A stretch of 64,000 nucleotides of DNA, taken from the IMG/VR virus record IMGVR_UViG_3300044732_001653, positions 7,518 to 71,517 of that record; one strand, written 5' to 3'. This document shows, piece after piece, positions 5,074 through 61,794 of this stretch (the stretch's first letter is position 1; each line of letters opens with the position of its first letter). This DNA is from a virus. The notes under the pieces are model-generated. The model was not told where the DNA came from. It saw nothing but the letters and a program-made list of their open reading frames with translations, and did not search any database. The position numbers and the translations under genes were made by a program.

Positions 5074-5360
5074 CCCTCGGCGGGATGACGGTCTCGGAGA
5101 TGCTCTCGCGAATGGACTCGCAAGAGCTATCCGAGTGGTACGCATACGACCAGCGGTGGCCGCTCGATGATGGCTGGCAGCAGACCGCAAGAATCTGCCG
5201 GATCATCATGGCCTCGTCTGGCAACTACGGCAACAAGGTGCCGGAGGAGTCGGCGTTCATCCCGGCGACGAGACGGGTCGAGCAGACGCAGGACCAGATC
5301 ATCGCCGAACTGATGAAGCTCACGAAGAAGCCCGGCGAAGACATCAACGCGAGCGTGTGA
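5019..5360 (+). CDS. Tail assembly chaperone gpT part (expressed as gpGT fusion)
   Basis: 'RLALALGGMTVSEMLSRMDSQELSEW.AY' resembles lambda gpT-like sequences. Confidence 0.8.
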   Translation, partial: GKRFAERPERRFYHRLALALGGMTVSEMLSRMDSQELSEWYAYDQRWPLDDGWQQTARICRIIMASSGNYGNKVPEESAFIPATRRVEQTQDQIIAELMKLTKKPGEDINASV

Positions 5361-8300
5361 TGAGTGCAGGATATCTCGGGAAAATCTCAGCGCTCGTCAC
5401 CGTCAACACCACGGACATTGCGTCCAAGGTGCAGAGCGGTTTCGCGGCTCCGTTTGAGAACGCCCTGAGATCGATCGAGAACTCCCTTCGGAACACGAAC
5501 AGGTCCGTCGAGAAGTCGTTCGCGGATATGTACACGACCAGCCAGAAGCGCCTTCGCGCCATGGCTGCGGCGCAGATGGGAGCCGTCAAGAACTTCAACT
5601 CCGACGACTTCTCAAAGCGATTCGCTGTCAGCGATGGCATTGCAACAACGCTTGGGAAGCTCGCCAGGGAGGTTGAGAAAACCTCGGGGACGATTCGTGA
5701 GCGGTTTGAGCCCGCGCTCGTCTCAGCCCAAGCCGAGGCTCAAGAGCTAATCGACCGCCTCGACGAGGGTCTCCCGGTCGCAATCGACGAAATCGGGAGA
5801 ATGGCAAACAGAGTCGACGACCTCACTCGTTCGTTCGACGCGGCGGGCAGCGCGGCTGCGAGGATGGAGAAGGTACTAAAGGACAACGAGGGGCTTCGCA
5901 CCAACCTTGCCACAGAGCGGCGACTTGCGGCCAACGTCGGTGCATCCTCGTCGCTTGCCGACAGGAGAGCGATGCTTCGTCGGGAGGAGATTGCAGGACA
6001 GAACATCGGGCTTCGCACCAACCTTGCCACAGAGCGGCGACTTGCGGCCAACGTCGGTGCATCCTCGTCGCTTGCCGACAGGAGAGCGATGCTTCGTCGG
6101 GAGGAGATTGCAGGACAGAACATCGGGCTTCGCACCAACCTTGCCACGGAGCGGCGACTTGCTGCCAACGTCGGAGCATCCTCGACTTGGGCGCCCGGCG
6201 CGCGAGAGGCATTGGTGAGGGCAAACATCGGCGCATCGTCGCCGGTGTCGTTTCAGACTCCATACCGCCGCGGTCTCGTCGGCCCGGCCGGGCCCATAAC
6301 AACCGGCATGAGTCCGGTGTCCATCGCTGGATCGGGTGCGAGGACCAATCTGCCAGACGGGTATCTCCAGAGGGTCGTGCGTGAAGCCGCCGAAAGAAGG
6401 CAGCAGACGCTTGATGAGTCGGCGGCCAGGGCAAGAGACGCCGCCCAGCGCGCTCGCCAAGAGGACATAAACCGGCAACGGGAGGCGGCTGCTCGATTCT
6501 CAGCGCAGGCCGTGACATCTCGACGATCCGCGTCGGACGAGTTCGCTGGGTCGCTTGGTGGGCGAGGCGCTAGAGGCGTGGCTCTCGGGCTTGATCGCAA
6601 CGCACTCGCCGCGTCCACCGCGGAACTTCAGATCATTCAGCGGGCCATTGGAAGAGCCTCGGCCGAGGCCCGAGGCCCCGCGGTTGAGGCTTTCGTCAGA
6701 CTGAAGAACGCAATCTCCGAAGCCTTTGAGAACGGAACGATCGACTCCGAGGCCACTCGGAGGAACATCGCCAGACTCAGGACCGAGGCGGTAAACAGTG
6801 CCGCCCAGGTTGGCGGCGTGAATCGACGGGGGCTGAACAGCGACGTGAACCGGGCCGGAGATATAGCCAGAGGAGGAGCCGACAAGCTCAGTCTCGCTCT
6901 CCAGCAGGCCGGCTTTGCCATCGACGACTTCTTCTCGGCGACGGGCGGAATGGATCAGAAAATCCGCGCCGTCAGCAACAACATCTCCCAGATGGCCTTC
7001 ATTCTCGGTGGCACGGCCGGGCTGTTCACCGGGCTCGCCTTCACCATCGGGTCTCAGGCAGTCGTAGCGTTGATGAAGTGGGCCGACGCCGGCAGAACGT
7101 CCGCAGACAGGACGGAAGCGCTAAACAAGGCCCTCGAAAGGCAGAAGTCGATCGCCGAAGAGCTTGCCACAGCCTACCGCGATCTCGCGAAGAGCCTTAC
7201 GGCCGCGATGTCTCCTCAGGGAGTGAAAGCAGCCGAACGTGCGAAGCAATTATCGGACCTGACCAGCAAGCGCAAGCAGTCGATGGAGGAGGACATCTTC
7301 GCGAATGACGTCGGCGTAGCGAGCGCCAGAGCCAGCGTCGCGATGGAAGAGAAAAGGGCGATGATCTCCGTAACGCCTGTCCAGCAGCAGGCAGCGCAAC
7401 TTCGCATCGCGCTCGCCAAGCGACAGGTGGAGGATGCCAAGCGGGAGTCTTTGGCGAGAAACGCGGCGTTCAACGACTTCGTCGACCGAGGCGTCGCCGG
7501 AGGCCCAGGGGCCGCCGTGCAGGCTTCCATTCAGCAAGCCATACAGACGTTCGGCCGCATCCGAATGTCTGACATGAGGCCCGCGGAGGCTCGCCAGTTT
7601 GAGCAGGGCGTCAACGCACAGATGAATGCTGTCCCTATGGCTGGCAGCAAGGCCGAGGCCGCCGCACAGCTTCGTGCCTATCTTGATCAAGAGTTCAGGA
7701 CAAACGAGAACGCCCGAGCGCCTGGCACCGTCGCTTCTCCTATCGTCGCCGGACTCCTGGAGCAGCTTGCTCGCCTTGAGTTTGGGCTCAAGGATGCGAA
7801 CACCGCAATCATTGACAGCGTCAACAAGTCCCTCGTTGACACATCGGACGTGCTTGAGAACGCGAGCAAGTCCCTCGACTCCGCGGCTATGGAGACGCAG
7901 GGAGTAACTGCTCTCCGCACCGAGATCGATCGAGTAGCCGCGAGCTTGGAGGCACTGTCCCTGGCGGCCTCAGAGACGACCGACAAGGGCGTTCTCGCTG
8001 CGATTGCCGAGGACGCGGAAGCGGCCAAGGTGCTTGGTGAACGGCTGAATGGGGCCGCTCGCAAGGCAAAGGAGTTCGCCGACAAGCTGCAAGAAGCGAT
8101 CACAGAGGAGAACAACGCAGCCGCGAGAGGCGTTGACCTCGGCAGGATTCGCGACCAAGGCGCTCAAGCCGAAGACATCCGCGCGGCCGCGGCGAACATC
8201 GGAAACAACGCAGAGCGAAACGCCTTCGTTGCGAGGGCTTTCGGAAACGTCGTCGCCGACACGCAAACGATCCTGAAGGGATTTGCGCAAGAGCGAGAGA

Positions 8301-20364: not shown

Positions 20365-21261
20365 ATGGACGCCACTCAGGAGACTCATGTCATGTTGCTA
20401 CGCGAACTGCTCGATAAGGACTACGCGATCGTCCGCGGGCTGCGGCCCAAGGCTGTCTATCAAGTTCGGCTCACACTCTCCCGTTGGTCCGATTTTCTCG
20501 GGAGAGGACCGACTACAGCGGATTTGCTGAATCTGCGGGTGATGGAGTTTCTCCATCACCGGAAAAGCGAGGTCAGCCTCGGGACAGTCCTCAAGGATCG
20601 CAACGGCATCTGCGGCCTCTGGAACTACGCGGCCAAGCAAGACCGAACGCTACCGTTCCCGACATTGCCCCCCATGAGCCCCATCAAGCGGGCGCCGCGC
20701 GCCTACACGATCGAGGACATCTCCAAGGTCATCCGGGTCGCCAAGGCCCTCCCAGGCGACGTCATGGGCGTCCAGCGGGGGCTGTGGTGGGCGACGATCT
20801 TTCGGACGGCATTCGAGACCGCCGAACGCCACGGCGCCCTGGCGGCTCTGCGGTGGAGCGAGGTCGACCTCCCCGGCCGGCTGATCACCTTCCTGGCCGA
20901 GGGGCGGAAGGGGGGCGGCCAGGACATCCAGCGGGAGATCAGCGGTGAACTGGCGTCGTGGCTCGACGAGATGCGGAGGGAGCCGGGAGAACTCGTCTGG
21001 CCGTGGAAGGGCGTCGAGTCGTCGCAGTGGCAGGAACTCGGCCGAATCTGCACCCTCGCGCAGGTCACGAATCGAGGATTTCACGGGTTTCGCAAGTCAA
21101 ACGCCTCCTATTTGACCGCGGCCAGAGGGGTCGGGGCAGCGTCTGAACAGTTGGGTCATAGCTCCAGTTCGGTAACGCTACGGCACTATGTCGACAGGTC
21201 CATCGCGAAGCCGAAAGAGACGGCAATCGACCTGCTTCCGCCGCTCAATTTGGGGGAATAG
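20365..21261 (+). CDS. int: Tyrosine recombinase/integrase
   Basis: Catalytic R (TAERHGAL), K (GRKG), HxxR (FHGFRK), LGH, and Y (TLRHY). Confidence 0.92.
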   Translation: MDATQETHVMLLRELLDKDYAIVRGLRPKAVYQVRLTLSRWSDFLGRGPTTADLLNLRVMEFLHHRKSEVSLGTVLKDRNGICGLWNYAAKQDRTLPFPTLPPMSPIKRAPRAYTIEDISKVIRVAKALPGDVMGVQRGLWWATIFRTAFETAERHGALAALRWSEVDLPGRLITFLAEGRKGGGQDIQREISGELASWLDEMRREPGELVWPWKGVESSQWQELGRICTLAQVTNRGFHGFRKSNASYLTAARGVGAASEQLGHSSSSVTLRHYVDRSIAKPKETAIDLLPPLNLGE

Positions 21262-52716: not shown

Positions 52717-52897
52717 GGTGTAGCTCCTTGAAATCATTCTTATCGAATCACTTGCAGCAGTCCATCCAGAAAATCGCGAACCGCCACGGCCAGCGGACCC
52801 CCCTGCCCTAGCTCCTGCCCCAGGCGGACCAAAAGCAGGGTACGAATCAACTCGTTCCAGCGTTTCGTCATACCCGTCTCCTCGTACCGGGGTCACG

Positions 52898-53050
52898 TCA
52901 GAGACCCCGCCGCCGCCGGCGAAGTCTCTCGGCCACCATCGCCGCCTGCCGCGCGCGTGCTGCTTGGATGTCTTGCGTGGTGGCTAGCTCCTTCGTGAGG
53001 AGAAACGCCAACCACTTTGCTTCGATGCGCTTGATTCTGTTCGTTCCCAT
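52898..53050 (-). CDS. Early-array hypothetical protein
   Basis: Starts at AAGGAACCCCCGACC-ATG. Confidence 0.55.
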   Translation of the reverse strand: MGTNRIKRIEAKWLAFLLTKELATTQDIQAARARQAAMVAERLRRRRRGL

Positions 53051-53091
53051 GGTCGGGGGTTCCTTCGTCTTGTGGGGTGTCGTTCCGTGAA

Positions 53092-53403
53092 TCAACCTTC
53101 CATCCGGCTCTCTTCGTCCTCGGCATCGAGCAGATCGCGGGCCAACCCCGCCCCCTGCTCACAGATGCCCTCGACCGTTCCGCCGCCGCCGACCCCGCCC
53201 TCGGCAATCGCCTCGGCAGCCGCGATGCCAGACTCGATCTCCCAATGGATCGCGAGGTCCGCGATCATCTCGGCCACCGACTCCTCAAAGGCCGCGCCTC
53301 TGGTACTGCGGCCGGTCATCTCCTCGTAGAGGCCCATGAGCTTCTCGGCGCGGGCATGGGCGTCGCCGCTGGTGTTCGCGGTCAGGTTGTTGGTCGTTGC
53401 CAT
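53092..53403 (-). CDS. Early-array acidic protein
   Basis: Starts at CCCCGACC-ATG; Glu/Asp rich. Confidence 0.65.
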   Translation of the reverse strand: MATTNNLTANTSGDAHARAEKLMGLYEEMTGRSTRGAAFEESVAEMIADLAIHWEIESGIAAAEAIAEGGVGGGGTVEGICEQGAGLARDLLDAEDEESRMEG

Positions 53404-53505
53404 GGTCGGGGTGTCTTTCTGTTCTAGTGGGGTAGTGTGGGCTGTCATCGTTTCGCCGGCCGGGGTTCCCATGCACGGGGGCCGGCGCCCGTGCGGGTTG
53501 TAGGT

Positions 53506-53943
53506 TCAAGACTCGATCAGCGTCCCAGGCGAGACCCTCTCCCAGATGATCGAGATGGCCGTTCGGAAGCTCTCGTACTCCGCGGACGGGGATTCATTCG
53601 TCCCGCCGTTGATGATGTCTTCCGGCTTCCAATCGCAGCCGTAGACGCGGTCATCGGGAGCGTGCGGCGTAAAGACGCCGGCCAAAGCCAAGGCCCCCCA
53701 GACGGCCATGCTGTCGAGGATGTTCCAGGGGTCGGCCGTCTCTCCGCACAGGTTCAACTGCTCGTTGATGTCGCCCTCAACGAGCGAGTCTTCCGGGTCG
53801 ATCGTTACGAACTGCCAGCCGGTTTCGTATGGCTCCGGTGCCGCCAAGGGCTCCGCGTCCCACTGCGACTCCCGCAGGAGCATGATTCCATCGGGCCCGG
53901 CGGCGGGGTATCCGATGATCCTGCGCCAGTAGATTCGTTCCAT
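53506..53943 (-). CDS. Early-array acidic protein
   Basis: GAGGAAA RBS after variant CCCCCGAACG. Confidence 0.65.
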   Translation of the reverse strand: MERIYWRRIIGYPAAGPDGIMLLRESQWDAEPLAAPEPYETGWQFVTIDPEDSLVEGDINEQLNLCGETADPWNILDSMAVWGALALAGVFTPHAPDDRVYGCDWKPEDIINGGTNESPSAEYESFRTAISIIWERVSPGTLIES

Positions 53944-54012
53944 CTCTCGTTTCCTCGTTCGGGGGTGTAATCGTCCAGGCCGGCACCGTGCCGGGGTTGC
54001 TATGGTCGGGGG

Positions 54013-54843
54013 TTAGGTCGCCTTGGCAATCGGCTCAACGCTTCCGGCAAACGGCTGGCCTTGAAACAGCCACCGACCAGCCTCGTCGCACCCGTAATCC
54101 GCCGCGTCTGTCGCAACCCATTCGGCAGCAGAGTAGGCCGCGCCGTCGTCAAGCATGACGTCGATGACCTCCCCGGCGTCGGTCGTGATTCTGTGCGTCG
54201 CAGACCATGACTCCAAGGCGGCGGCATCGCGATTCGCGAACACCTCCCTTGCCGCCTCCAGGCCAGCCTCATTCGCGGCGTCGATCGCCGCCCTCTCGTC
54301 GCTCGTCAGGTCGCCGGCCATCGTGCCGATGGCGCCGGCCGAATACCCCCAGTGTGCGCCGCACCACTGAGAGTGGAGGACACGACCATTCTTCGGCGCC
54401 TCGACGTCGAGGCGGCTGGCCCGGTCGTCGTCGGCCATGGCGATGATCGCGGCCCGGCGGTAGGCGGCACACGCCTCTTCCTGCGCCGGGTGATCCGACG
54501 GGGCCATCTCCCGCAGTCCAGCATTCCAACCGATCGTCTCGTCGGCAGTCGCAAACTCGACCGTCACCGGATCTGAGGGGGCGGCGGTGCCCTCTGCGGT
54601 GTCGATCCGCCAGCCGGCGCGGCGGGCAACGTCCTCCGCGATCATCGCCTCGTTTTCCACGTTGAGGTAGCCTTCCTCGCTGCCGACGACTTTGCCGGTC
54701 AGTTCGCCGTCGCCGTCAACCTCGGGCCACAATCCCTCCCAATCGACGGCATCGCGAGCCTCCTGCCATTCGGCGCTGCCCAAGGTCAGGCCAGCGCACG
54801 CCTCGGCGGCACGTTCGGGGGTCATTTCGTCCATCGGTCGCAT
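54013..54843 (-). CDS. Early-array acidic protein
   Basis: AGGAG RBS; very Asp/Glu rich. Confidence 0.65.
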   Translation of the reverse strand: MRPMDEMTPERAAEACAGLTLGSAEWQEARDAVDWEGLWPEVDGDGELTGKVVGSEEGYLNVENEAMIAEDVARRAGWRIDTAEGTAAPSDPVTVEFATADETIGWNAGLREMAPSDHPAQEEACAAYRRAAIIAMADDDRASRLDVEAPKNGRVLHSQWCGAHWGYSAGAIGTMAGDLTSDERAAIDAANEAGLEAAREVFANRDAAALESWSATHRITTDAGEVIDVMLDDGAAYSAAEWVATDAADYGCDEAGRWLFQGQPFAGSVEPIAKAT

Positions 54844-54919
54844 GATCGTCTCTCCTACGGGTTTCCACGTTCGGGGGCATCGGCACGTTGCCGATGCTCG
54901 TTTCGTCGTTCGGGGGGCA

Positions 54920-55177
54920 TCAACGCTGCTGCGAGTCAAGGCTCTCCCAGTGGGCCACGAGGTCGGCGTCGCCCAGGAACGACTTCCCGACTTCCTCGTG
55001 CTTGCCGTTGCTGTTGACGTAGCGGGCGAGGATTTCGCCCTTGGCGTTGCGGCGGGCTTGGCACAGGCATACGCCCCCATGGGCGGCGGGGTTGTAGTCG
55101 TCTCGGCCCACCGATCCGGTGTAGCCGGTGATGCAGATCGTCTCCCAGCGGTTCGTCAACTTGGCTTTCGTCGTCAT
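54920..55177 (-). CDS. Early-array hypothetical protein
   Basis: 'GYTGSV..NPAAHGGV..VNSNG.H.E'. Confidence 0.65.
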   Translation of the reverse strand: MTTKAKLTNRWETICITGYTGSVGRDDYNPAAHGGVCLCQARRNAKGEILARYVNSNGKHEEVGKSFLGDADLVAHWESLDSQQR

Positions 55178-55281
55178 GGTCACCGTCTCCTAGGTTTCGT
55201 GCCGTCCCCCCGCACCGGGGGTCTAGTGTCTCTCGTCTCGGCCACCCCGGCAACGCGCCGGGGTTTCCATGGTCGGGGGTG

Positions 55282-55851
55282 TCAGTCTGCCGGCCACCAA
55301 GCGGGGCGACCGCCGCCGTCGAACGCCCACGGGCAGGCCGCTCGCAGTCTCGCCCAACAGCCGGAGTGATCGGCCGCAATGGGCAGGTAGTCGATTCGCT
55401 CATACTCCCAGCCGACAATCGCCGCCGACGCCCCACGCAGGCCGGCCGCCCGCAGCATATTGGCCGCCGCGGCTATCCTCCCCGTGGCTCGCGGCGTCTT
55501 CGCCAGTTGTGCCGGCCAGCAGTAGAAGAGATGGTCAACGAACTCACTCCAGCGATCGCCCCACGAATACGACCAGTCCGGCGGATCGGTCGGAAGACCG
55601 CCCACGTCCAGCCGGAAGCGGATTTCCTCGCGGTCGGCGGCGGGGAGCCGGTCGTCGTGGAGCAGCCGACGGGCGACATTGCAGCCGAGGGTGGGGTGCC
55701 ACTCGTAATGACTGCAAGATGCTTCCAGCTTCATCGCGATCGCGATCAATTGCGTTCCCGTGAGCCGCTCCCACCTCGCCGCCTCGTCTGTGTAGACCAG
55801 GATCGCGTTGCGTTCGCCTGCGGACATCATCATCGTCTTCATCGTTCCCAT
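55282..55851 (-). CDS. Early-array hypothetical protein
   Basis: GAGGAAA RBS; flanked by repeat elements. Confidence 0.6.
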   Translation of the reverse strand: MGTMKTMMMSAGERNAILVYTDEAARWERLTGTQLIAIAMKLEASCSHYEWHPTLGCNVARRLLHDDRLPAADREEIRFRLDVGGLPTDPPDWSYSWGDRWSEFVDHLFYCWPAQLAKTPRATGRIAAAANMLRAAGLRGASAAIVGWEYERIDYLPIAADHSGCWARLRAACPWAFDGGGRPAWWPAD

Positions 55852-55926
55852 GATCGTCGTTTCCTCGTTCGGGGGTTAGGGGGTCCATCGGCCGGAGTGG
55901 CCGGTGGACGTTGGTACGGTCGGGGG

Positions 55927-56430
55927 TCAGTCAGCGGCCGAGATTTCTTCCCACACGGTCGGGCGGTTTGCTTTGAGCCAGTCCAGTGCTTCGTCTTGGT
56001 TTACGTCGACCTCAAACCCGACGCCCGCAAGCCGGCAATAGTCGAGAACTTCCCCCACCTGCGGGTTGTCCGTCGAATCGATAGCGACGCCGTCGGCCGC
56101 TTCGCTATATCCCCAGCCTTCTGCCGCCAATTCTTCGATCTCGTCAGACGAAGCGGACGCGAGCCATTGGGCACCATCAAACGTGACTTCCTTGCGGTAG
56201 TCGTCGGAGTGAACCTTTGCCCGCACGAACACCGGGCATACCTCGGGAGGAGCCGGGGCGCCAGGATCTTTGGCGAGAATGCGGTCTAATACCATGGTCG
56301 AATCGCAGTCACAGCAATGCGGAACATCGTCGAGGCCAGCCGCGGCGACCGTGTCTTCGTCAAAGCATTCCGGGCACCGAAAAACAACTTGGGCGCTGGT
56401 GGCGTCGATCTCTTTCCATTCTGGTTCCAT
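55927..56430 (-). CDS. Early-array Zn-ribbon acidic protein
   Basis: CPEC..CCDC; 'VHSDD..V.FD..WL'. Confidence 0.65.
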   Translation of the reverse strand: MEPEWKEIDATSAQVVFRCPECFDEDTVAAAGLDDVPHCCDCDSTMVLDRILAKDPGAPAPPEVCPVFVRAKVHSDDYRKEVTFDGAQWLASASSDEIEELAAEGWGYSEAADGVAIDSTDNPQVGEVLDYCRLAGVGFEVDVNQDEALDWLKANRPTVWEEISAAD

Positions 56431-56519
56431 CGTCTGGGTTCCTTTGGTTGTGGGCATCGACGCGGCGCCGCTGCCCGTTTCGTCGTTCCGGGGGTCGTTC
56501 GTTTCTACGGTCGGGGTAT

Positions 56520-56768
56520 TCAGGCTCGCCCCTCGGCCAGCGCCCTCATGTCGTCAATCAATCCTTGATTCGCCCCGCGCAGCGAGGCCGATTGTTTCGC
56601 CCGCAGCGCGTCGATTGCTTTCCGCAAGTCGGCCGCGTCAGTACCTAGCTGGCACTGGACAAAGCACGGGGCTGTTATCTGTTTCGCGCCCGAGGCGGCT
56701 TCAAGCGTGGACAGCAAGCCGTTAGCGCGTTCGATGACTCGCTCAGTCAACTGTTTCTGAGATGGCAT
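56520..56768 (-). CDS. Early-array hypothetical protein
   Basis: AAAGGAACCC RBS. Confidence 0.6.
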   Translation of the reverse strand: MPSQKQLTERVIERANGLLSTLEAASGAKQITAPCFVQCQLGTDAADLRKAIDALRAKQSASLRGANQGLIDDMRALAEGRA

Positions 56769-56855
56769 GGTTAGGGTTCCTTTGTCTCGGGGTTCCTACG
56801 GTCGGGGGGGCGCCGCCGACGTTGACGGCGCCCCGTTGCTACGGTCGGGGGTCAA

Positions 56856-57059
56856 TCAGCGGGTACGCACCATCCGATAAATCACGCCCTCGCGATCCTT
56901 GACGCACACCGATTCCCCGGTGTCGAGCGATCGCCAATCCTTTTCCCCCGGCGCACTGACAACCGCCGCGAGCAGGGCGTTATCGGCGGGGACGTCGGCC
57001 AGTCCGAAAACGGGGGAATCGTGTCGGGTATCCAAGAGAGTGAAGGCTTTCGTTTCCAT
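56856..57059 (-). CDS. Early-array hypothetical protein
   Basis: AGGAAACCCCGACA-ATG. Confidence 0.6.
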   Translation of the reverse strand: METKAFTLLDTRHDSPVFGLADVPADNALLAAVVSAPGEKDWRSLDTGESVCVKDREGVIYRMVRTR

Positions 57060-57152
57060 TGTCGGGGTTTCCTGTTGGGGGCATCGACGCGGCGCCGCTG
57101 CCCGTTTCCACGTTCCGGGGCATCGGCACGTTGCCGCTGCCCGTTGCTACGG

Positions 57153-57338
57153 TCATTTCGTCGCGGCTAGATACTCGGCCGCCCGCTCTATCTCCGTTTC
57201 TACTGCCGTCGCGGCCCGCTGGTAGCGGTGCTGGTCGATCACGCCGCGATTGCGCAGGTCTGCGGCTTCCGCGAAAGCCGCGTCGGCATTCACGATGGCC
57301 GCGAGGATCGCGCGGGGGGTTTCTGTGGCGGTTGTCAT
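57153..57338 (-). CDS. Early-array hypothetical protein
   Basis: AAGGAACCCCCCGACC-ATG. Confidence 0.6.
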   Translation of the reverse strand: MTTATETPRAILAAIVNADAAFAEAADLRNRGVIDQHRYQRAATAVETEIERAAEYLAATK

Positions 57339-57386
57339 GGTCGGGGGGTTCCTTGTCGGGGGTGGCGGTTATGGCTTGTGGGGTGC

Positions 57387-57884
57387 TTAGTCCGCAAACG
57401 ATCCGAAAGCCTGACAGTAGGACAAGAGCGTTTCGCCGCTCCCCTCGCCGCCGTAGTGGTGCGTCCACGGCTTCCCCCAGTCTTGCACTTCAAGCCACGC
57501 GCGACTCGGCTCCCCGTGTTCGTCCAGTTCGGCCATTACCCGCACCGCCGGCCCGCCAGTAGCCAACAAGACTTCTACTCGGTCGGCTTGCCAAACGCCG
57601 TCCACCCGCTCCCCGAAAACCCGGATAGACAAAGGGTCTTCCGCGATTCGCTGCTCCGCGGAATCGCGGTCGGCATGATCCCCCGCCGCCGTGTCGAGCG
57701 CCGCCAGTTCGGCCGCGTCTTCCGGGTTTGCTGCCGCCCACGCGGCGGGATCGTCGGCGCTATCGCAATCGGCCCGCAGTTCGTCGCGGCGCTCGAAATC
57801 GCAATTGAGCGCGGCCACCATTTCCGCGATTCCCGCGTAGGCGGGGGCGCCGATTTCCTCAATCCAATTGTTGTCGTTGCTCAT
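57387..57884 (-). CDS. Early-array conserved phage protein
   Basis: 'EDPLS..EVLLATGGPAVR...L..QDWG.PW'. Confidence 0.75.
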   Translation of the reverse strand: MSNDNNWIEEIGAPAYAGIAEMVAALNCDFERRDELRADCDSADDPAAWAAANPEDAAELAALDTAAGDHADRDSAEQRIAEDPLSIRVFGERVDGVWQADRVEVLLATGGPAVRVMAELDEHGEPSRAWLEVQDWGKPWTHHYGGEGSGETLLSYCQAFGSFAD

Positions 57885-57966
57885 GGTCGGGGGTTCCTTT
57901 GTCTATGGTTTCAACGGTCGGGGGGGCATCGGCAACGCGCCGCTGCCCGTTGCTACGGTCGGGGGG

Positions 57967-58371
57967 TCAATAGCTGGGGAGATTGGAGACTGGCCCGGCC
58001 AGACGTACCGTCTGGAGAATGCGGTAGCCCATCTCCTGCGCCGCCTGCGCGGCCGCAGATTCAGACTTACGAATTGTCGCCACGCTAGAACCGCCGTCGG
58101 TTAGGACGCGCCAATCGTCGGCCGATTCTTGCCACACAATCGCGGGCATGGTCGGTGGGGCGTCGGGCATCTGCCGGGCATCCCACAAAGCCGCGCAGGC
58201 GGCCGCGGCAGACGGGTAGACGGTAGGCCATTGCCGCCCGCCACGCTCCACACACCAGCGGCCGCGGCCGCCGATAACGAGCCCGGCAATCCGATAGCCG
58301 TCGGCGGCCGATCGGACAAAGTATCTGCCGGCGCCTACGCGCTCCTTGCTCCACTCGATTGTCGTTGCCAT
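57967..58371 (-). CDS. Early-array hypothetical protein
   Basis: AGGATACCCCGACC-ATG. Confidence 0.6.
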   Translation of the reverse strand: MATTIEWSKERVGAGRYFVRSAADGYRIAGLVIGGRGRWCVERGGRQWPTVYPSAAAACAALWDARQMPDAPPTMPAIVWQESADDWRVLTDGGSSVATIRKSESAAAQAAQEMGYRILQTVRLAGPVSNLPSY

Positions 58372-58450
58372 GGTCGGGGTATCCTGTTTGTGGTTCCATC
58401 GGTCGGGGGCCGGCACCGCGCCGCCCCCCGTTGTCATGGTCGGGGGTCAA

Positions 58451-58960
58451 TCACTCCAAACAGATAGAAGAGCCGCAGATCACTTTTCCGTTTTTCGTAA
58501 TCACCGTTTCGATATCAACGGAGCGATAGCTAGAGACTCCGGCCGGGTACGCGCCAAAGGCGACAAACCCAAGCCCCTCATTACGGGTCTTTATAGAGCC
58601 GCGAGAGTAGGACAGGGTGAGACGAAACCCTGCCAGTAGGAGCGCCGCCACGGTCGGGCCGTGGGTGTGTACAAACTTCGCTTCCGGCACGAACACCCGC
58701 GGCCCGTCGGAATCGGAATCGTCGCCGGGGCGCCCGGTGACACTTGCGGAAATGTCCGTCTCGATAGTGACGATCGCGCAGGCATCGCCGGGGCGCTTTC
58801 CGTCCACCGCCCGGCGAAACTCGCCGCGCCATCCGTTGGCGGCCGTCGCCCAAAATGTCCATCCATCATCGGGCCTGTTTGCTACCCGCCGGAGGAATCG
58901 CTTTCCTTCCGGGGAGTCGATTGAGACGGTATCGAACGTGTCGAGCAGTGTCGTTGCCAT
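58451..58960 (-). CDS. Early-array hypothetical protein
   Basis: AGGAAACCCCCCGACC-ATG. Confidence 0.65.
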   Translation of the reverse strand: MATTLLDTFDTVSIDSPEGKRFLRRVANRPDDGWTFWATAANGWRGEFRRAVDGKRPGDACAIVTIETDISASVTGRPGDDSDSDGPRVFVPEAKFVHTHGPTVAALLLAGFRLTLSYSRGSIKTRNEGLGFVAFGAYPAGVSSYRSVDIETVITKNGKVICGSSICLE

Positions 58961-59044
58961 GGTCGGGGGGTTTCCTGTTTGGTTTCAACGGTCGGGGATC
59001 GTCGCCACGGCTACGCGCCGTGGCTTGTGGGGTAGGTTGTGGAA

Positions 59045-59398
59045 TCAATGAATCCTCGCGCCGCCGCCCATGGCGTGGGGATTGTCCCGGTATTGCCCGT
59101 CGGCGTCCCGGTAGACGAACGGCCGCACAAACCCCGCGTAGGGGTTTCCGCATGATTCGCATACGCTCCCGGTCGATCGTGAGCGGCGCCGGGTAGACTG
59201 CGGCGGGGTAGACCGCTTCCCCGTGGCGTGGCGGCACCGTTTGCATTGGTGGCGGGACGAATTGAAATCATAGGTACGCACAAACTCGCGGCCGCCGGCC
59301 GACGTCGGCACAAAAACGCGGGTTATCCATGAGGCGGCCGGACGGGGAGCGGCTAGCGCCGCTTCCATTGTTCGATAGATCATGATCGGGGTTTCCAT
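59045..59398 (-). CDS. Early-array Zn-finger protein
   Basis: CKRC..CESC; starts at CCCCGACC-ATG. Confidence 0.6.
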   Translation of the reverse strand: METPIMIYRTMEAALAAPRPAASWITRVFVPTSAGGREFVRTYDFNSSRHQCKRCRHATGKRSTPPQSTRRRSRSTGSVCESCGNPYAGFVRPFVYRDADGQYRDNPHAMGGGARIH

Positions 59399-59468
59399 GG
59401 TCGGGGTTTCTACGGTCGGGGGGGCGCCGCCGACGTGACGGCGCCCGTTGCTATGGTCGGGGGGTGGG

Positions 59469-59873
59469 TCAATCGGGGGAGAAATAAATCAAGCCATCGT
59501 CGCCGGGGTAGACGTCAACGACGCCGAATGAATGCGCCGACGCGGTCAATCTCTCGCCGGATTCCTCCGGCCAGTCTCCATCCCAAAAGCCGGCGCCGTG
59601 GTGGTTTCTGGTCAAGAAAAAATCATGGCCGGCGCGCTCTTCCGGGGAGTAGTCCGGCCCACAACGGACGGGGCCGCCGTCGATATCCTCCCGGTTAGCC
59701 GCCGCAAATGCGGCGCAGTCTCGCCGCGCTTTATCGAGCGCGGCCGGGGCAAAATCATCGACAGTAAACCGCGAGTCGAGAGGGTTTCCGTTTTCATCGG
59801 TAGACGCCCAAAGGGCCGTTTCTAGGTACGCGGGCAGGATGGCGGCGGCGGTCTGGTCTGGTGTCGTTTCCAT
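59469..59873 (-). CDS. Early-array conserved phage protein
   Basis: 'AYLETALWAS..DC..F..AGHDFFLTRNHHGAGFWD..YPGDDG.IY'. Confidence 0.8.
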   Translation of the reverse strand: METTPDQTAAAILPAYLETALWASTDENGNPLDSRFTVDDFAPAALDKARRDCAAFAAANREDIDGGPVRCGPDYSPEERAGHDFFLTRNHHGAGFWDGDWPEESGERLTASAHSFGVVDVYPGDDGLIYFSPD

Positions 59874-59947
59874 GGTCGGGGGGTTTCCTATGGTTGGGGG
59901 CATCGACGTGGCGCCGCTGCCCGTTTCGTCGGTCGGGGGGGGGTAAT

Positions 59948-60565
59948 TCAGGCTTCCGGCGAATCGCCGCGGGCGATGGCCGCCGCGAGTTTCCGCGCGC
60001 CGGTAACGGTTCGGGCCGTCCTAACAAGCCATCCGGCGGGATGGTGGGGGGAGCGTCGAACCATATAGACGCCGTTTTCCCGGCTAATCGTCGCGGCATT
60101 GCCGCGGCGGGTTATGGTTTGCGTTAGGCCGCAGGAAAAGCCGTAAGGGGTCGGCGTACCGTCGGCGGCCGCGGTTGTGGTGTTTACGGTCGGGGGGGAG
60201 ACTCGCCGACGTCGCAAGCGCAGAATCATCCCCGGCCCCTGCCCCCGGCCGTACCATCGGGCGCCGTCAAACGCGGTGACGTCGACAGTACAGTAGCCGT
60301 ATGAATTGCCGCCGATACGGCCGACGTGATGACGGGAATACGTCACGCGCCCGACGATCCCCCCCGGCCATGTCTGGACGGTTTTACCGTCGGCGGAAAG
60401 GTAGCCGGTAAACCTGTCATGCCCGGCCATATATTCGCGCTCCCGACGGGTGGAGCAGGGGTAGCATACTTTCCGGCCGTCTCCATCTAGAGCGTATCCC
60501 GTGGGGCCGACGGTATCGGGTTTGGCAATCGCGGCGCCGCAATCGCGGCAGTGTGTCGCTTCCAT
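59948..60565 (-). CDS. Early-array protein, apparent fusion of two units
   Basis: N-part 'CRDCG..TGYA..VCYPC..GYLS..TWPG..WYG.G'; C-part 'TPYGFSCG'; repeat motif at the junction. Confidence 0.65.
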   Translation of the reverse strand: MEATHCRDCGAAIAKPDTVGPTGYALDGDGRKVCYPCSTRREREYMAGHDRFTGYLSADGKTVQTWPGGIVGRVTYSRHHVGRIGGNSYGYCTVDVTAFDGARWYGRGQGPGMILRLRRRRVSPPTVNTTTAAADGTPTPYGFSCGLTQTITRRGNAATISRENGVYMVRRSPHHPAGWLVRTARTVTGARKLAAAIARGDSPEA

Positions 60566-60668
60566 AGCCGGGGGTTTCCTGTTTGGGTTTCCATGGTCGG
60601 GGGCATCGGCTACGCGCCGCGGCCCGTTTCTACGGTCGGGGGTCGATCGAATGACTAGCGGGGTAGGC

Positions 60669-61016
60669 TCAATCGTAGTTTCCGCGCTCCACGATATCGC
60701 CCCATGATCCGACGGCCCAACGGCCGCGGCCGGTCGGGCGCCCCGACTCGTTGACGCCGTCGATGTACAGAATCGTCGGGGTATAGGTATCGCCCGTGTT
60801 TGCATATTCAATCGACGGGGAACGGGCGCCGCGGCCGGGGGGAATCAATTCGGCGCCGTAACAGCCGGGCAAAGTGGCGCTAATACTTTCCATGGTGTTA
60901 GTGACGAATCGCGGCCGGGTTTGTTCGTGTTGTTCCATGAGCCGTCTAACGGCCCGCGCGCATTCAATCGAAACGGAAAGCCGCGCGGAAATCGTCTTAG
61001 GGGTAGGTATTGCCAT
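60669..61016 (-). CDS. Early-array conserved phage protein
   Basis: 'YGAE..EYANTGDTY.PTI....VGSWGDIVE'. Confidence 0.75.
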   Translation of the reverse strand: MAIPTPKTISARLSVSIECARAVRRLMEQHEQTRPRFVTNTMESISATLPGCYGAELIPPGRGARSPSIEYANTGDTYTPTILYIDGVNESGRPTGRGRWAVGSWGDIVERGNYD

Positions 61017-61069
61017 GGTCGGGGGGGTTCCTTTGTCTAGCGGGAGGATGAATTGCGGGGCCGTCAACG

Positions 61070-61333
61070 TCAGCCGGGGAAGGAAATGAAATGAGCTTGC
61101 GCACCGCCGGGGCCGGGCAAACAGCCGGTTCCTCCAATCGTCGCGCCCGGCCACAGTTTGGCCGCCAATTCGGCCGCGGCGGTATCATGGTTCCCGTCGG
61201 CGGATAGCTCATGGCGATAGCCGCAGTAAATCCGGCGGCCGCTACCAGACGTGGCGCTAATCCTGCTCCCGCGGGTATCGGTCGGGCCGTGGAACCGGGT
61301 AACAATGACGGGAACGGTTTTCGGGCTTGTCAT
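61070..61333 (-). CDS. Early-array conserved phage protein
   Basis: 'IVTRFHGPTDTRGSRISAT..Y.HELS..NH..AA..L'. Confidence 0.75.
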   Translation of the reverse strand: MTSPKTVPVIVTRFHGPTDTRGSRISATSGSGRRIYCGYRHELSADGNHDTAAAELAAKLWPGATIGGTGCLPGPGGAQAHFISFPG

Positions 61334-61398
61334 GGTCGGGGGGTATCCTGTTTGGGGTTTCCACGGTCGGGGGGTCGGGGTTTCATCGCACGGGGGTA

Positions 61399-61428
61399 AA
61401 TCTAAGATAACCTATCGGCAGACGTCAA
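61399..61428 (-). promoter_or_regulatory. Early promoter driving the cassette array
   Basis: Minus strand TTGACG-N18-TAGATT. Confidence 0.7.
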
Positions 61429-61522
61429 GCGGAATATTTAGGGGCCGGGTTTTTCGCGGTTTCTACGCTCGTTTCCACGGTCGGGGGGGTATCGTTTCCA
61501 CGGCCGGGGGGGCTTCGTTTCT

Positions 61523-61794
61523 ACGGTCTCGGGATGATCGGCAGTCCTGTCCCCGGTGACTCGGGCGCCCACGGCGGCCACGAGCCCCCGACGGTCTCGG
61601 GATGATCGGCAGTCCTGTCCCCGGTGACTCGGGCGCCCACGGCGGCCACGAGCCCCCGACGGTCTCGGGATGATCGGCAGTCCTGTCCCCGGTGACTCGG
61701 TCGCCCACGGCGGCCACGAGCCCCCGACGGTCTCGGGATGATCGGCAGTCCTGTCCCCGGTGACTCGGGCGCCCACGGCGGCCACGAGCCCCCG
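61523..61794. repeat. 68-bp tandem repeat x4
   Basis: Copies start at 61523, 61591, 61659 and 61727; one substitution in copy 3. Confidence 0.97.

What the first reader, a model, noticed from the sequence alone, without database searches (positions are those of the whole stretch)
53975..60630. Covarying hairpin in the array spacers (structure kept, sequence changes)
Seen (+ strand): CCGGCA-CCG-TGCCGG (~53980), GGGCATCGGCA-CGT-TGCCGATGCTC (~54875), CCCCGGC-AACGC-GCCGGGG (~55245), GTCCATCGGCC-GGAGT-GGCCGGTGGAC (~55884), GGGCATCGACGC..CCGCTGCCC (~56450, 57080, 59897), GGGGCGCCGCC-GACGT-TGACGGCGCCCC (~56807), GGGCATCGGC-AACGC-GCCGCTGCCC (~57924), GCCACGGC-TACGC-GCCGTGGC (~59004), GGGCATCGGC-TACGC-GCCGCGGCCC (~60601). 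Stems vary with pairing retained, loops often contain ACG, several have a mid-stem mismatch, and none has a U-tract. Inference: a ssDNA recombination hairpin (attC-like) or an RNA processing/antitermination element (T7 RNase III-like, HK022 put-like).
Basis: partly seen in the sequence, partly recalled or inferred. Interest (0 to 1): 0.74.

Follow-up and report, generated by a model that had tools for sequence, protein, structure and literature searches.

The report
Covarying hairpins between phage early genes
A lake-water phage separates its small early genes with short GC-rich hairpins whose stems change in sequence but stay paired; they belong to a repeated spacer module at which related phages swap gene cassettes, a kind of element known from other phages but undescribed in this form.

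Summary
All 11 listed hairpins exist and I found 3 more: 14 compact stem-loops in 13 of 17 intergenic spacers of a minus-strand array of small ORFan genes (window 53051-61069) in a 71.5-kb phage genome.

Compact hairpins are far commoner than in shuffled spacers, although whole-spacer folding energy is unremarkable. Each hairpin sits about one 16-nt unit (CCCCGACCnTnGnAAC) after a stop codon and before unit, ribosome-binding site and ATG.

Relatives from IMG/VR (terminase 60-75% identical) carry the same strand-polarised unit and hairpins. These share an invariant apex, CGGC-RCGTT-GCCG, and a freely covarying outer stem. This holds even when copies are picked on the 11-mer core alone.

Cassette gains, losses and swaps between relatives have their junctions in the units, not in the hairpins.

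The attC, T7 RNase III, HK022 put and canonical terminator memberships each fail a defining feature.

Best reading, which is inferred: an intercistronic RNA stem-loop acting as a cassette boundary (decay barrier or attenuator) within a promoter-less module resembling T4 PeSLs and mycobacteriophage SAS/ESAS.

The scan has noted similar hairpin-punctuated phage arrays on unrelated DNA (e1-5839915, e1-3436313).

The parts
60601..60625 (-). hairpin 1: 4+4 pairs around a 2x2 internal loop, loop GCGTA
   Evidence: -15.1 kcal/mol; covariance model R1 49.9 bits
59898..59922 (-). hairpin 2: 5+5 pairs, G.A mismatch, one G.U on the coding strand
   Evidence: -14.3 against -9.8 on the other strand
   Evidence: -21.3
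59004..59024 (-). hairpin 4: 8 perfect pairs, loop GCGTA; no unit upstream
   Evidence: -16.7; 1/500 shuffles
   Evidence: -22.8
57924..57948 (-). hairpin 6: 5+4 pairs, G.A mismatch, loop GCGTT (consensus apex)
   Evidence: -15.8; best R1 hit, 51.9 bits
57079..57103 (-). hairpin 7b: second hairpin of the same spacer
   Evidence: -14.3
56807..56834 (-). hairpin 8: 11 pairs including one U.G
   Evidence: -24.9
56452..56476 (-). hairpin 9: same sequence as 7b
55883..55909 (-). hairpin 10: 5+5 pairs with a different outer stem (GTCCA/TGGAC), C.A mismatch, loop ACTCC
   Evidence: -17.0; the other strand gives -21.1
55244..55264 (-). hairpin 11: 8 perfect pairs, loop GCGTT
54877..54897 (-). hairpin 12: 9 perfect pairs, inverted apex GGCAACGTGCC
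   Evidence: (0/500)
53980..53994 (-). hairpin 13: 6 pairs, loop CGG; a hairpin is kept at the same relative place after homologues of the upstream gene
52898..61333 (-). co-directional array of about 18 small genes whose spacers carry the 16-nt unit CCCCGACCnTnGnAAC and the hairpins
61399..61428 (-). sigma-70-like promoter match (TTGACG-18-TAGATT) upstream of the first hairpin-array gene; consensus match only

Best explanation
The hairpins are selected, strand-polarised stem-loops lying between cistrons of one long early transcript. The phage is an uncultivated lake siphophage that carries an integrase gene.

Each spacer is a composite module: stop codon, 16-nt C-rich unit, GC hairpin, unit, Shine-Dalgarno, then a unit running into the ATG. 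The spacers have no promoter of their own, so the roughly 18 ORFan genes appear to be read from an upstream sigma-70-like promoter.

In that RNA the hairpin forms just beyond the footprint of a terminating ribosome. It most likely acts as a boundary for the cassette upstream: a barrier to 3'-to-5' decay, a processing stop, or a partial attenuator. This would insulate each cassette's expression.

The flanking units, not the hairpin, are the short direct repeats at which cassettes are gained, lost and replaced.

Shown: existence, excess over chance, fixed position, covariation, conservation across the clade, and junctions that lie in the units.

Inferred: that the hairpin acts as RNA, and the barrier or attenuator role.
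For: Position: 13 of 14 hairpins directly follow a unit or unit variant. In most spacers the stem starts 10-25 nt after the stop codon (about 41-43 nt in two of them) and 35-60 nt before the next ATG. Relatives show the same placement.

Excess over chance: 12 of 17 spacers against 0.86 expected.

Covariation in this genome.

Covariation across the clade:
- Structured model R1 scores relatives' copies at 21-32 bits, against about 11-21 bits for the sequence-only model R2 at the same sites.
- On a MAFFT alignment of 17 relatives' copies plus 5 from this genome, 90.0% of cells pair against 67.3% shuffled (0/500). 44 cells changed on both sides against 16.3 expected.
- Among 36 distinct copies chosen on the 11-mer core alone, the six outer positions pair in 26-32 of 36. 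Shifted partners give 4-25 of 36.

Strand polarity:
- The core lies in unit orientation in 22 of 24 matches in five complete relatives.
- The unit itself is 59 to 0 in strand.

Transcription signals: no promoter-like site lies in the spacers and no T-tract terminator lies at a hairpin. Promoter-like sites lie only at 61428 and 63639.

A hairpin is kept after homologues of gene 54843-54013, with three different stems.

Cassette junctions lie in units.

A precedent for a stem-loop inside a shuffling intergenic module is the T4-type PeSL (PMC2839356, passages read).
Against: - No RNA data exist. No RNA run holds this DNA, so RNA-level action is not shown.
- Whole-spacer folding energy is not unusual.
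- Folding energy does not favour the coding strand across the clade. Of 44 copies, the coding strand is better in 12, equal in 13 and worse in 19.
- A plain decay barrier does not explain why the apex CGGC-RCGTT-GCCG is invariant. The 4 inner pairs do not change in 22 of 22 rows, apart from one unpaired cell.
- Two copies in this genome carry the apex inverted.
- 4 of 17 spacers, and many spacers of relatives, lack a hairpin, so it is not obligatory.
- The copies are paralogues that spread by recombination, so shuffle tests overstate independence.
Confidence: 0.42

Rival explanations
1. The hairpin is the binding site of a specific factor. A phage or host RNA-binding protein would read the invariant apex while the stem only needs to pair, as lambda N reads boxB or a coat protein reads its operator. 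The protein could be an antiterminator, a processing endonuclease or a translational regulator.
For: The apex is invariant and the outer stem is free to vary.

Polarity is strong: 22 of 24 copies lie in unit orientation.

A conserved linear element, the unit, lies beside the hairpin, as boxA does in nut sites (recalled).

The C-rich unit, hairpin, C-rich unit layout resembles rutA-boxB-rutB of lambda tR1 (recalled).
Against: No candidate protein was found. 0 of 20 array proteins reach a Pfam cut-off, and the 5 of 20 with PHROG hits are all of unknown function.

There are 14 copies per operon, unlike nut sites.

In this genome the loops vary (GCGTT, GCGTA, GCGGT, ACG, CCG, ACTCC) and two apexes are inverted.
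Confidence: 0.2
2. The hairpins have no function of their own. They are palindromes that hitch-hike with, or arise from, recombination among the repeated units. Sequence conservation would then reflect copy-and-paste spread, and pairing would persist because palindromes are copied whole.
For: Many copies in one genome are near-identical paralogues.

Cassettes move with their spacers.

The hairpin is dispensable in many spacers.
Against: Outer stems differ by compensated changes at six positions among 36 copies chosen on the core only. Copying alone does not produce that.

A palindrome between direct repeats is a classic deletion substrate (recalled), so its persistence suggests selection.
Confidence: 0.1
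3. The hairpins are terminators for transcription running the other way. Read on the plus strand they are followed by GTTTC, GTTGC or TTTGTCTT. They could stop late plus-strand transcription from running antisense through the early array.
For: Mean T count in the 10 nt after the stem is 3.6 on the antisense strand and 1.0 on the coding strand.

The plus-strand genes converge on the array near 52 kb.

Energy is no worse on that strand across the clade.
Against: The terminator scan called none of the 14 sites on either strand. It found 13 sites in the region against 13.1 expected.

The T runs are only 2-3 long.

Five hairpins in this genome have G.U pairs only on the coding strand.

There is no evident reason for a terminator at every spacer.
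Confidence: 0.08
4. The hairpin is a folded single-stranded DNA recombination site, attC-like, used by the conserved tyrosine recombinase to insert and excise cassettes.
For: The layout resembles an integron: promoter-less, co-directional ORFan cassettes each with an imperfect hairpin.

The recombinase is conserved in 5 of 5 relatives.

This scan has reported phage integron-like arrays elsewhere (e1-3541497, unchecked here).
Against: Junctions of 3 of 3 indels or replacements lie in units or at the ATG, not at hairpins.

There is no R'/R'' pair, and the stems are far shorter than attC.

The recombinase is 18-32 kb from the arrays and matches no integron-integrase model.
Confidence: 0.05
5. The hairpin is a double-stranded DNA operator: a palindrome bound by a dimeric repressor.
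For: The core GGCA-CGT-TGCC is palindromic and conserved.

The phage carries an integrase-family gene.
Against: The half-sites outside the 4-bp core vary freely, though always in step. That pattern fits pairing, not sequence reading.

The asymmetric loop keeps one orientation in 22 of 24 copies.
Confidence: 0.05

Closest known systems
PeSLs (promoter-early stem-loops) of T4-type phages (Arbiol et al. 2010, PMC2839356; Comeau et al. 2014, PMC4122927; passages read)
   Same: A conserved composite intergenic module containing a stem-loop flanks ORFans in a hyperplastic early region. Close relatives differ by cassettes that are flanked by two modules in one phage and replaced by a single module in the other. 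Here L040 against L029 shows this.
   Different: PeSLs carry a strong sigma-70-like promoter in every module, and their stem-loop terminated transcription in a reporter. Here no promoter-like site lies in the spacers. The repeat is a 16-nt C-rich unit that runs into the start codon. The hairpin has an invariant apex.
Start-associated sequences and extended SAS (SAS/ESAS) of Cluster K mycobacteriophages (Pope et al. 2011, PMC3203893; PMC12699233; passages read)
   Same: A short asymmetric repeat lies in one orientation at translation starts of non-structural genes. In about half the cases an imperfect inverted repeat with a short spacer lies immediately upstream. The function is still unknown in 2025.
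   Different: The SAS is GGGATAGGAGCCC, and ESAS arms are 17 bp and conserved in sequence. Here the unit is CCCCGACCnTnGnAAC. Arms are 6-11 bp, and only the 4 apical pairs are conserved while the rest covaries.
RNase III processing sites between T7 early genes (recalled)
   Same: Hairpins lie between cistrons of one early polycistronic RNA, without a U-tract.
   Different: T7 sites are about two helical turns with an internal loop. These hairpins have 6-11 pairs.
Integron attC sites (recalled definition)
   Same: Promoter-less co-directional cassettes are each associated with an imperfect hairpin of variable sequence.
   Different: There are no R/L boxes, the stems are far shorter, no integron integrase lies beside the array, and the observed junctions lie in the direct-repeat units.
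Intercistronic mRNA decay terminators (Rhodobacter puf operon hairpin, E. coli REP in malEFG; recalled)
   Same: A GC-rich stem-loop without a U-tract lies just after a cistron inside an operon.
   Different: Those are single or host-wide elements. They are not part of a phage cassette module and have no conserved apex.

Membership tests
Integron attC | Complementary core sites R'' (RYYYAAC) and R' (GTTRRRY) closing the folded site | tested here: not met
   The 5' flank ends in AAC in most copies, but the 3' flank is CCCCGACC with no GTT partner. The definition is recalled.
Integron attC | Length 57-141 nt with L boxes and extrahelical bases | tested here: not met
   The hairpins are 15-28 nt. 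The mid-stem mismatch is confined to one paralogous subfamily, and relatives' stems are mostly perfect.
Integron attC | IntI-type integrase with attI beside the array | tested here: not met
   The recombinase at 20365-21261 has only a weak Pfam Phage_integrase hit and 0 NCBIfam families. It lies about 32 kb from the array, and its homologues lie 18-30 kb from the arrays in 5 of 5 relatives.
Integron attC | Cassette boundaries fall in the hairpin site | tested here: not met
   3 of 3 indels or replacements have their junctions in the 16-nt units or at the ATG.
T7-type RNase III site | About 20 bp of double-stranded RNA in two helical segments | tested here: not met
   6-11 pairs. The requirement is recalled.
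T7-type RNase III site | Cleavage by RNase III | not testable with these tools
   This needs an enzyme assay or RNA end mapping. No RNA run is available.
HK022 put | Two adjacent stem-loops of about 65-70 nt, one site per early operon | tested here: not met
   These are single hairpins of 15-28 nt in 14 copies. Rfam gives 0 hits at E<=1. I did not verify that Rfam holds a put model.
Lambda-type nut (boxA + boxB) | Short hairpin with a conserved loop and a variable stem, next to a conserved linear box | tested here: inconclusive
   The form matches, with an invariant apex, a covarying stem and an adjacent unit. There is no sequence likeness and there are 14 copies.
Lambda-type nut (boxA + boxB) | N-like arginine-rich antiterminator protein | not tested
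   The only lead is the 50-aa product of 53050-52898, which ends in an arginine run.
Intrinsic terminator | U-tract directly after a GC-rich stem | tested here: not met
   0-2 T in the 10 nt after each of the 14 stems on the coding strand. The scan calls none of the sites on either strand.
T4-type PeSL | Stem-loop inside a conserved intergenic module that flanks ORFans and bounds indels between relatives | tested here: met
T4-type PeSL | Sigma-70-like early promoter in each module | tested here: not met
   3 promoter-like sites in 14 kb, none in a hairpin spacer. This was a consensus scan only.
Cluster K SAS/ESAS | 13-bp repeat GGGATAGGAGCCC at starts, plus 17-bp imperfect inverted repeats upstream | tested here: not met
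   The architecture is alike, but the sequence and arm length differ.

The most novel reading that the evidence does not exclude
The invariant apex CGGC-RCGUU-GCCG on a freely covarying stem is the recognition site of a dedicated, still unidentified factor. Together with the 16-nt start/stop-associated units it would define a phage system of promoter-less ORFan cassettes. In this system the units would be the exchange sites, and the hairpin would be a factor-read punctuation mark that cuts or insulates each message. That would be a functional parallel to an integron built from different parts, shared by a whole clade of freshwater phages.
Probability: 0.2. Interest if true: 0.75.

Novelty: new variant of a known kind. 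Interest (0 to 1): 0.5.

Why it matters
Hyperplastic early regions hold most of the unknown genes of phages, and how they are expressed and shuffled is poorly understood.

This clade offers a clean, repeated, comparably simple module:
- a 16-nt unit that contains the start context;
- a hairpin with an invariant apex and a covarying stem;
- visible cassette gain, loss and replacement at the units.

The module could be tested directly with reporters. It also widens the small set of described systems (PeSL, SAS/ESAS) to uncultivated high-GC freshwater phages.

The element is also a practical marker for finding cassette boundaries in metagenomic phage contigs.

Tried and rejected
- Whole-spacer folding energy against dinucleotide shuffles is not significant for most spacers. 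I replaced it with a compact-hairpin statistic.
- Rfam gave 0 matches at gathering thresholds for the whole window and 0 at E<=1 for 52800-61600.
- N4-type hairpin promoters: rejected. The longest ORF is 1050 aa with no Pfam family, so there is no giant virion RNA polymerase.
- CRISPR-repeat mimic, and REP/RAYT element: considered and dropped. Hairpin sequences differ between copies and GTAG is not conserved.
- Host-genome repeat: three metagenome bins that hold related contigs carry only 1-7 copies of the core, and 4 of the 7 in one bin lie on the phage-like contig.
- Host: the three bins carry conflicting labels (Solirubrobacteraceae, Chakrabartia, Microbacteriaceae). The protein atlas gave only viral clusters. 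The host stays unknown.
- Expression: no RNA holder is listed.
- Laid contigs of four lake runs are short, break at the repeats, and are identical where they lie. They show no variants inside hairpins.
- One contig of run X16 joins 55874 to 58406 with 17 other letters between, both ends in units (table 5c). It is one low-depth contig at 85% likeness, so I treat it only as a hint.
- Strand choice by folding energy is inconclusive across 44 copies.
- The pattern scan of IMG/VR for unit plus GGG found 3 contigs with one match each. Only L001 proved to be a relative.
- The metagenome scan with the 276-aa array protein gave 7 short contigs. Two were clade-like and carried the hairpin.
- The 14 hairpin rows of A1 were chosen because they fold. 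The rows of A3 and A4 from relatives were chosen by a structured model. I therefore added the core-only selection.
- Supplements of the cited papers were not seen.

Full report
**Setting.** The window is bases 7518-71517 of a single 71,517-bp contig. The contig starts with small and large terminase, portal, protease and an HK97-type capsid gene. It also carries a PrimPol, SNF2 and UvrD-type helicases, and a weak integrase-family recombinase. It is therefore a tailed phage, found almost letter for letter in many lake-water metagenomes. Most genes run on the plus strand. From about 63.6 kb down to about 52.9 kb, some 22 small genes run on the minus strand. Of 20 of them scanned, none reaches a Pfam cut-off, and the 5 with PHROG hits are all of unknown function.

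**Anatomy, read on the coding (minus) strand.** Between 61333 and 52898 the spacers are built from a 16-nt C-rich unit, CCCCGACC-nTnG-nAAC. Its plus-strand core GGTCGGGG occurs 34 times in the window against 7.2 +/- 3.0 expected, and 30 of the 34 lie on the plus strand between 53051 and 61486. A typical spacer has six parts in this order:
- stop codon
- unit
- GC hairpin
- unit
- AGGAA (ribosome-binding site)
- unit ending in ATG

In many genes the first codons (ATG GCA/GAA ACG) are the tail of the unit. Promoter-like matches lie only upstream, at 61428-61399 and 63639-63611 on the minus strand. No T-tract terminator is called at any hairpin. The array therefore looks like one operon of promoter-less cassettes; this is inferred from consensus scans only.

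**The observation.** Folding each spacer gives 14 compact stem-loops in 13 of 17 spacers.
- Thirteen of the 14 directly follow a unit or a unit variant.
- In most spacers the stem starts 10-25 nt after the stop codon.
- The 10 nt after each stem hold 0-2 T.
- Whole-spacer minimum free energy is not unusual against dinucleotide shuffles. Only 1 of 17 spacers had 0 of 200 shuffles as stable. In shuffles the many Cs of the units find Gs to pair with.
- The right statistic is a compact hairpin. 12 of 17 spacers have one of <= -14 kcal/mol within 36 nt, against 0.86 +/- 0.89 in shuffles, with a maximum of 4 in 200.
- With Watson-Crick pairs only, 7 of 17 against 0.29.
- A covariance model built from the 14 copies finds them, and nothing else in the 64-kb window below E = 0.1 except their own mirror images.

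**Covariation within the genome.** A MAFFT alignment made without any structure (A1) puts the arms in register.
- 89.7% of cells pair against 75.7% after shuffling partners (0/500).
- 6 of 9 pairs show a change on both sides (1/500).
- Sliding the partner gives 30-59%.
- The inner four pairs, CGGC/GCCG, barely change. The outer stem takes at least five forms: GGGCA/TGCCC, GCCA/TGGC, GTCCA/TGGAC, CGGGGG/CCCCCG, ACCC/GGGT.
- The copies are paralogues, so these tests overstate independence.

**Relatives.**
- The large terminase finds 71 IMG/VR loci at 60-100% identity.
- Those with sequence upstream of the terminase carry the same unit on the same relative strand.
- In five complete relatives the unit occurs 59 times on one strand and 0 on the other. 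The backwards-read control gives 3.
- The structured model finds 20 hits at E < 0.01 in relatives, scoring 21-32 bits. A sequence-only model from the same alignment gives about 11-21 bits at those sites and misses some.
- The aligned hits show an invariant apex, CGGC-RCGTT-GCCG, and a freely varying but paired outer stem.
- On a sequence-only MAFFT alignment of 17 relatives' copies and 5 of this genome, 90.0% of cells pair against 67.3% (0/500). 44 cells are changed on both sides against 16.3 (0/500). The count of pairs with any double change is not above shuffles (361/500).
- Because those rows were picked by a structured model, I repeated the test on copies picked only by the 11-mer GGCRCGTTGCC. 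Among 36 distinct copies in relatives, the six positions outside the core pair in 31, 32, 26, 30, 28 and 26 of 36, with mixed CG, GC, AU and UA. With the partner shifted, 4-25 of 36 pair.
- The core is polar. It lies in unit orientation in 22 of 24 matches in the five genomes.
- In this genome there are 6 copies in that orientation, allowing one mismatch, and 2 inverted.

**Orthologous places.** The 276-aa product of 54843-54013 has homologues in relatives. In 4 of 5 hits, and in the 2 clade-like contigs, a hairpin follows the stop. The stem is GCCGC/GCGGC or GCCGGC/GCCGGC in relatives and CCGGCA/TGCCGG here, while the next gene differs. A hairpin is thus kept behind the same upstream gene, which fits a 3' element.

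**Cassette exchange.** Only about 5 of 22 array proteins have homologues in the fetched relatives.
- L040 holds a 333-nt segment of hairpin, unit and an 83-codon ORF between two identical copies of CCCCGAACGTAACAAC. L029, which is 82-87% identical on both sides, has one copy of that unit and nothing between.
- L070 and L139 (92% alike) differ by an inserted gene bounded by a repeated ribosome-binding-site unit.
- They also differ by an ORF replacement that starts right after the ATG and ends at the stop-side unit.
- In all three events the junctions lie in units or at the start codon, not in hairpins.

This is the pattern described for PeSLs of T4-type phages, where an ORFan flanked by two PeSLs in RB49 is replaced by one PeSL in phi1 (PMC2839356, passages; PMC4122927).

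**What it is not.**
- attC: no core-site pair, far too short, no integron integrase, a distant recombinase, and junctions elsewhere.
- T7 RNase III site: too few pairs.
- HK022 put: the wrong size and copy number.
- Intrinsic terminator: no U-tract on the coding strand.
- N4 hairpin promoter: no virion RNA polymerase.
- Host REP: absent from the candidate bins.
- Rfam knows nothing like it.

**Most likely mechanism.** The position is just beyond a terminating ribosome, inside an apparently single transcript, in one orientation, with selection for pairing. I read this as an intercistronic RNA stem-loop that bounds the upstream cassette as a decay barrier, processing stop or attenuator (confidence about 0.4).
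- The invariant apex is not explained by that alone. It keeps a factor-binding reading alive at about 0.2.
- An antisense-terminator reading has some support from T-richer flanks on the other strand but fails the terminator scan.
- Folding energy does not pick a strand, and no RNA data exist.

**Comparison and novelty.** The closest described systems are PeSLs and the SAS/ESAS repeats of Cluster K mycobacteriophages. The latter are a 13-bp start-associated repeat with imperfect inverted repeats upstream in about half the cases, and their function was still unknown in 2025 (PMC3203893 and PMC12699233, passages). The present module differs in three ways: it lacks promoters, its unit runs into the start codon, and its hairpin has a conserved apex and a covarying stem.
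- My paper searches found no description of this element. They were searches for analogues, not an exhaustive search.
- This scan has reported hairpin-punctuated phage gene arrays on other, unrelated DNA. No look-alike of this stretch is on its index.

**Verdict.** A real, selected, clade-wide element. It is a new variant of a known kind, and its mechanism is still inferred.

Noticed in passing
window 53051-61486 (plus strand GGTCGGGG); relatives G001-G005: The 16-nt unit CCCCGACCnTnGnAAC is strictly strand-polarised, 59 to 0 in five relatives. It overlaps start codons. It also stands in tandem clusters of 4-7 copies beside the early promoter in relatives, for example G003:287-395 and G002:22026-22116. 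Its layout recalls the stoperators of Cluster A mycobacteriophages (PMC9283540, abstract in the search listing only). Its own function is open.
   Followed up: partly
window 61523-61794 and 63754-64000: A 68-bp tandem repeat of 4 copies (99% matches) lies upstream of the array promoter. A related 60-bp repeat of 4.1 copies (100% matches) runs into the contig end. Laid contigs show a 'goes back 68' joint, so the copy number varies or the assembly is collapsed there.
   Followed up: no
L040 (locus coordinates 5343-5676) against L029 (693-711): A 333-nt cassette (hairpin, unit and an 83-codon ORF) is bounded by identical 16-nt units in one phage. The other phage has a single unit there.
   Followed up: yes
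L070 against L139: One extra gene is bounded by a repeated ribosome-binding-site unit. One ORF is replaced exactly between the ATG and the stop-side unit.
   Followed up: yes
window 53454-53487 (-); L033, L137, L138, L140, L143, L145, L146: A second hairpin class, GCCG(G)C-loop-G(C)CGGC, is followed directly by GAAAC, as if inserted inside a unit. It is kept after homologues of gene 54843-54013.
   Followed up: partly
window 52898-53050 (-): The 50-aa product ends in an arginine run (RLRRRRRGL) and has a homologue in L143. It is a possible nucleic-acid binder and only a lead.
   Followed up: no
window 60188-60204, inside ORF 59948-60565 (-): A unit-like sequence lies inside a 205-codon ORF. 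It may be a relic of two fused cassettes.
   Followed up: no
window 59469-59873 (-): This is the only array protein with a solid family (phrog_1915, unknown function, E 9e-24). It has relatives at 38-56% identity in 61 otherwise unrelated viral contigs.
   Followed up: no
window 55874 and 58406: One low-depth contig of lake run X16 joins these two unit positions with 17 other letters between. This would remove six genes (table 5c). It is a weak hint of cassette-level variation in nature.
   Followed up: no
L142, L143, L144: Related phage-like contigs sit in metagenome bins labelled Solirubrobacteraceae, Chakrabartia and Microbacteriaceae. The labels conflict, so binning gives no host.
   Followed up: partly
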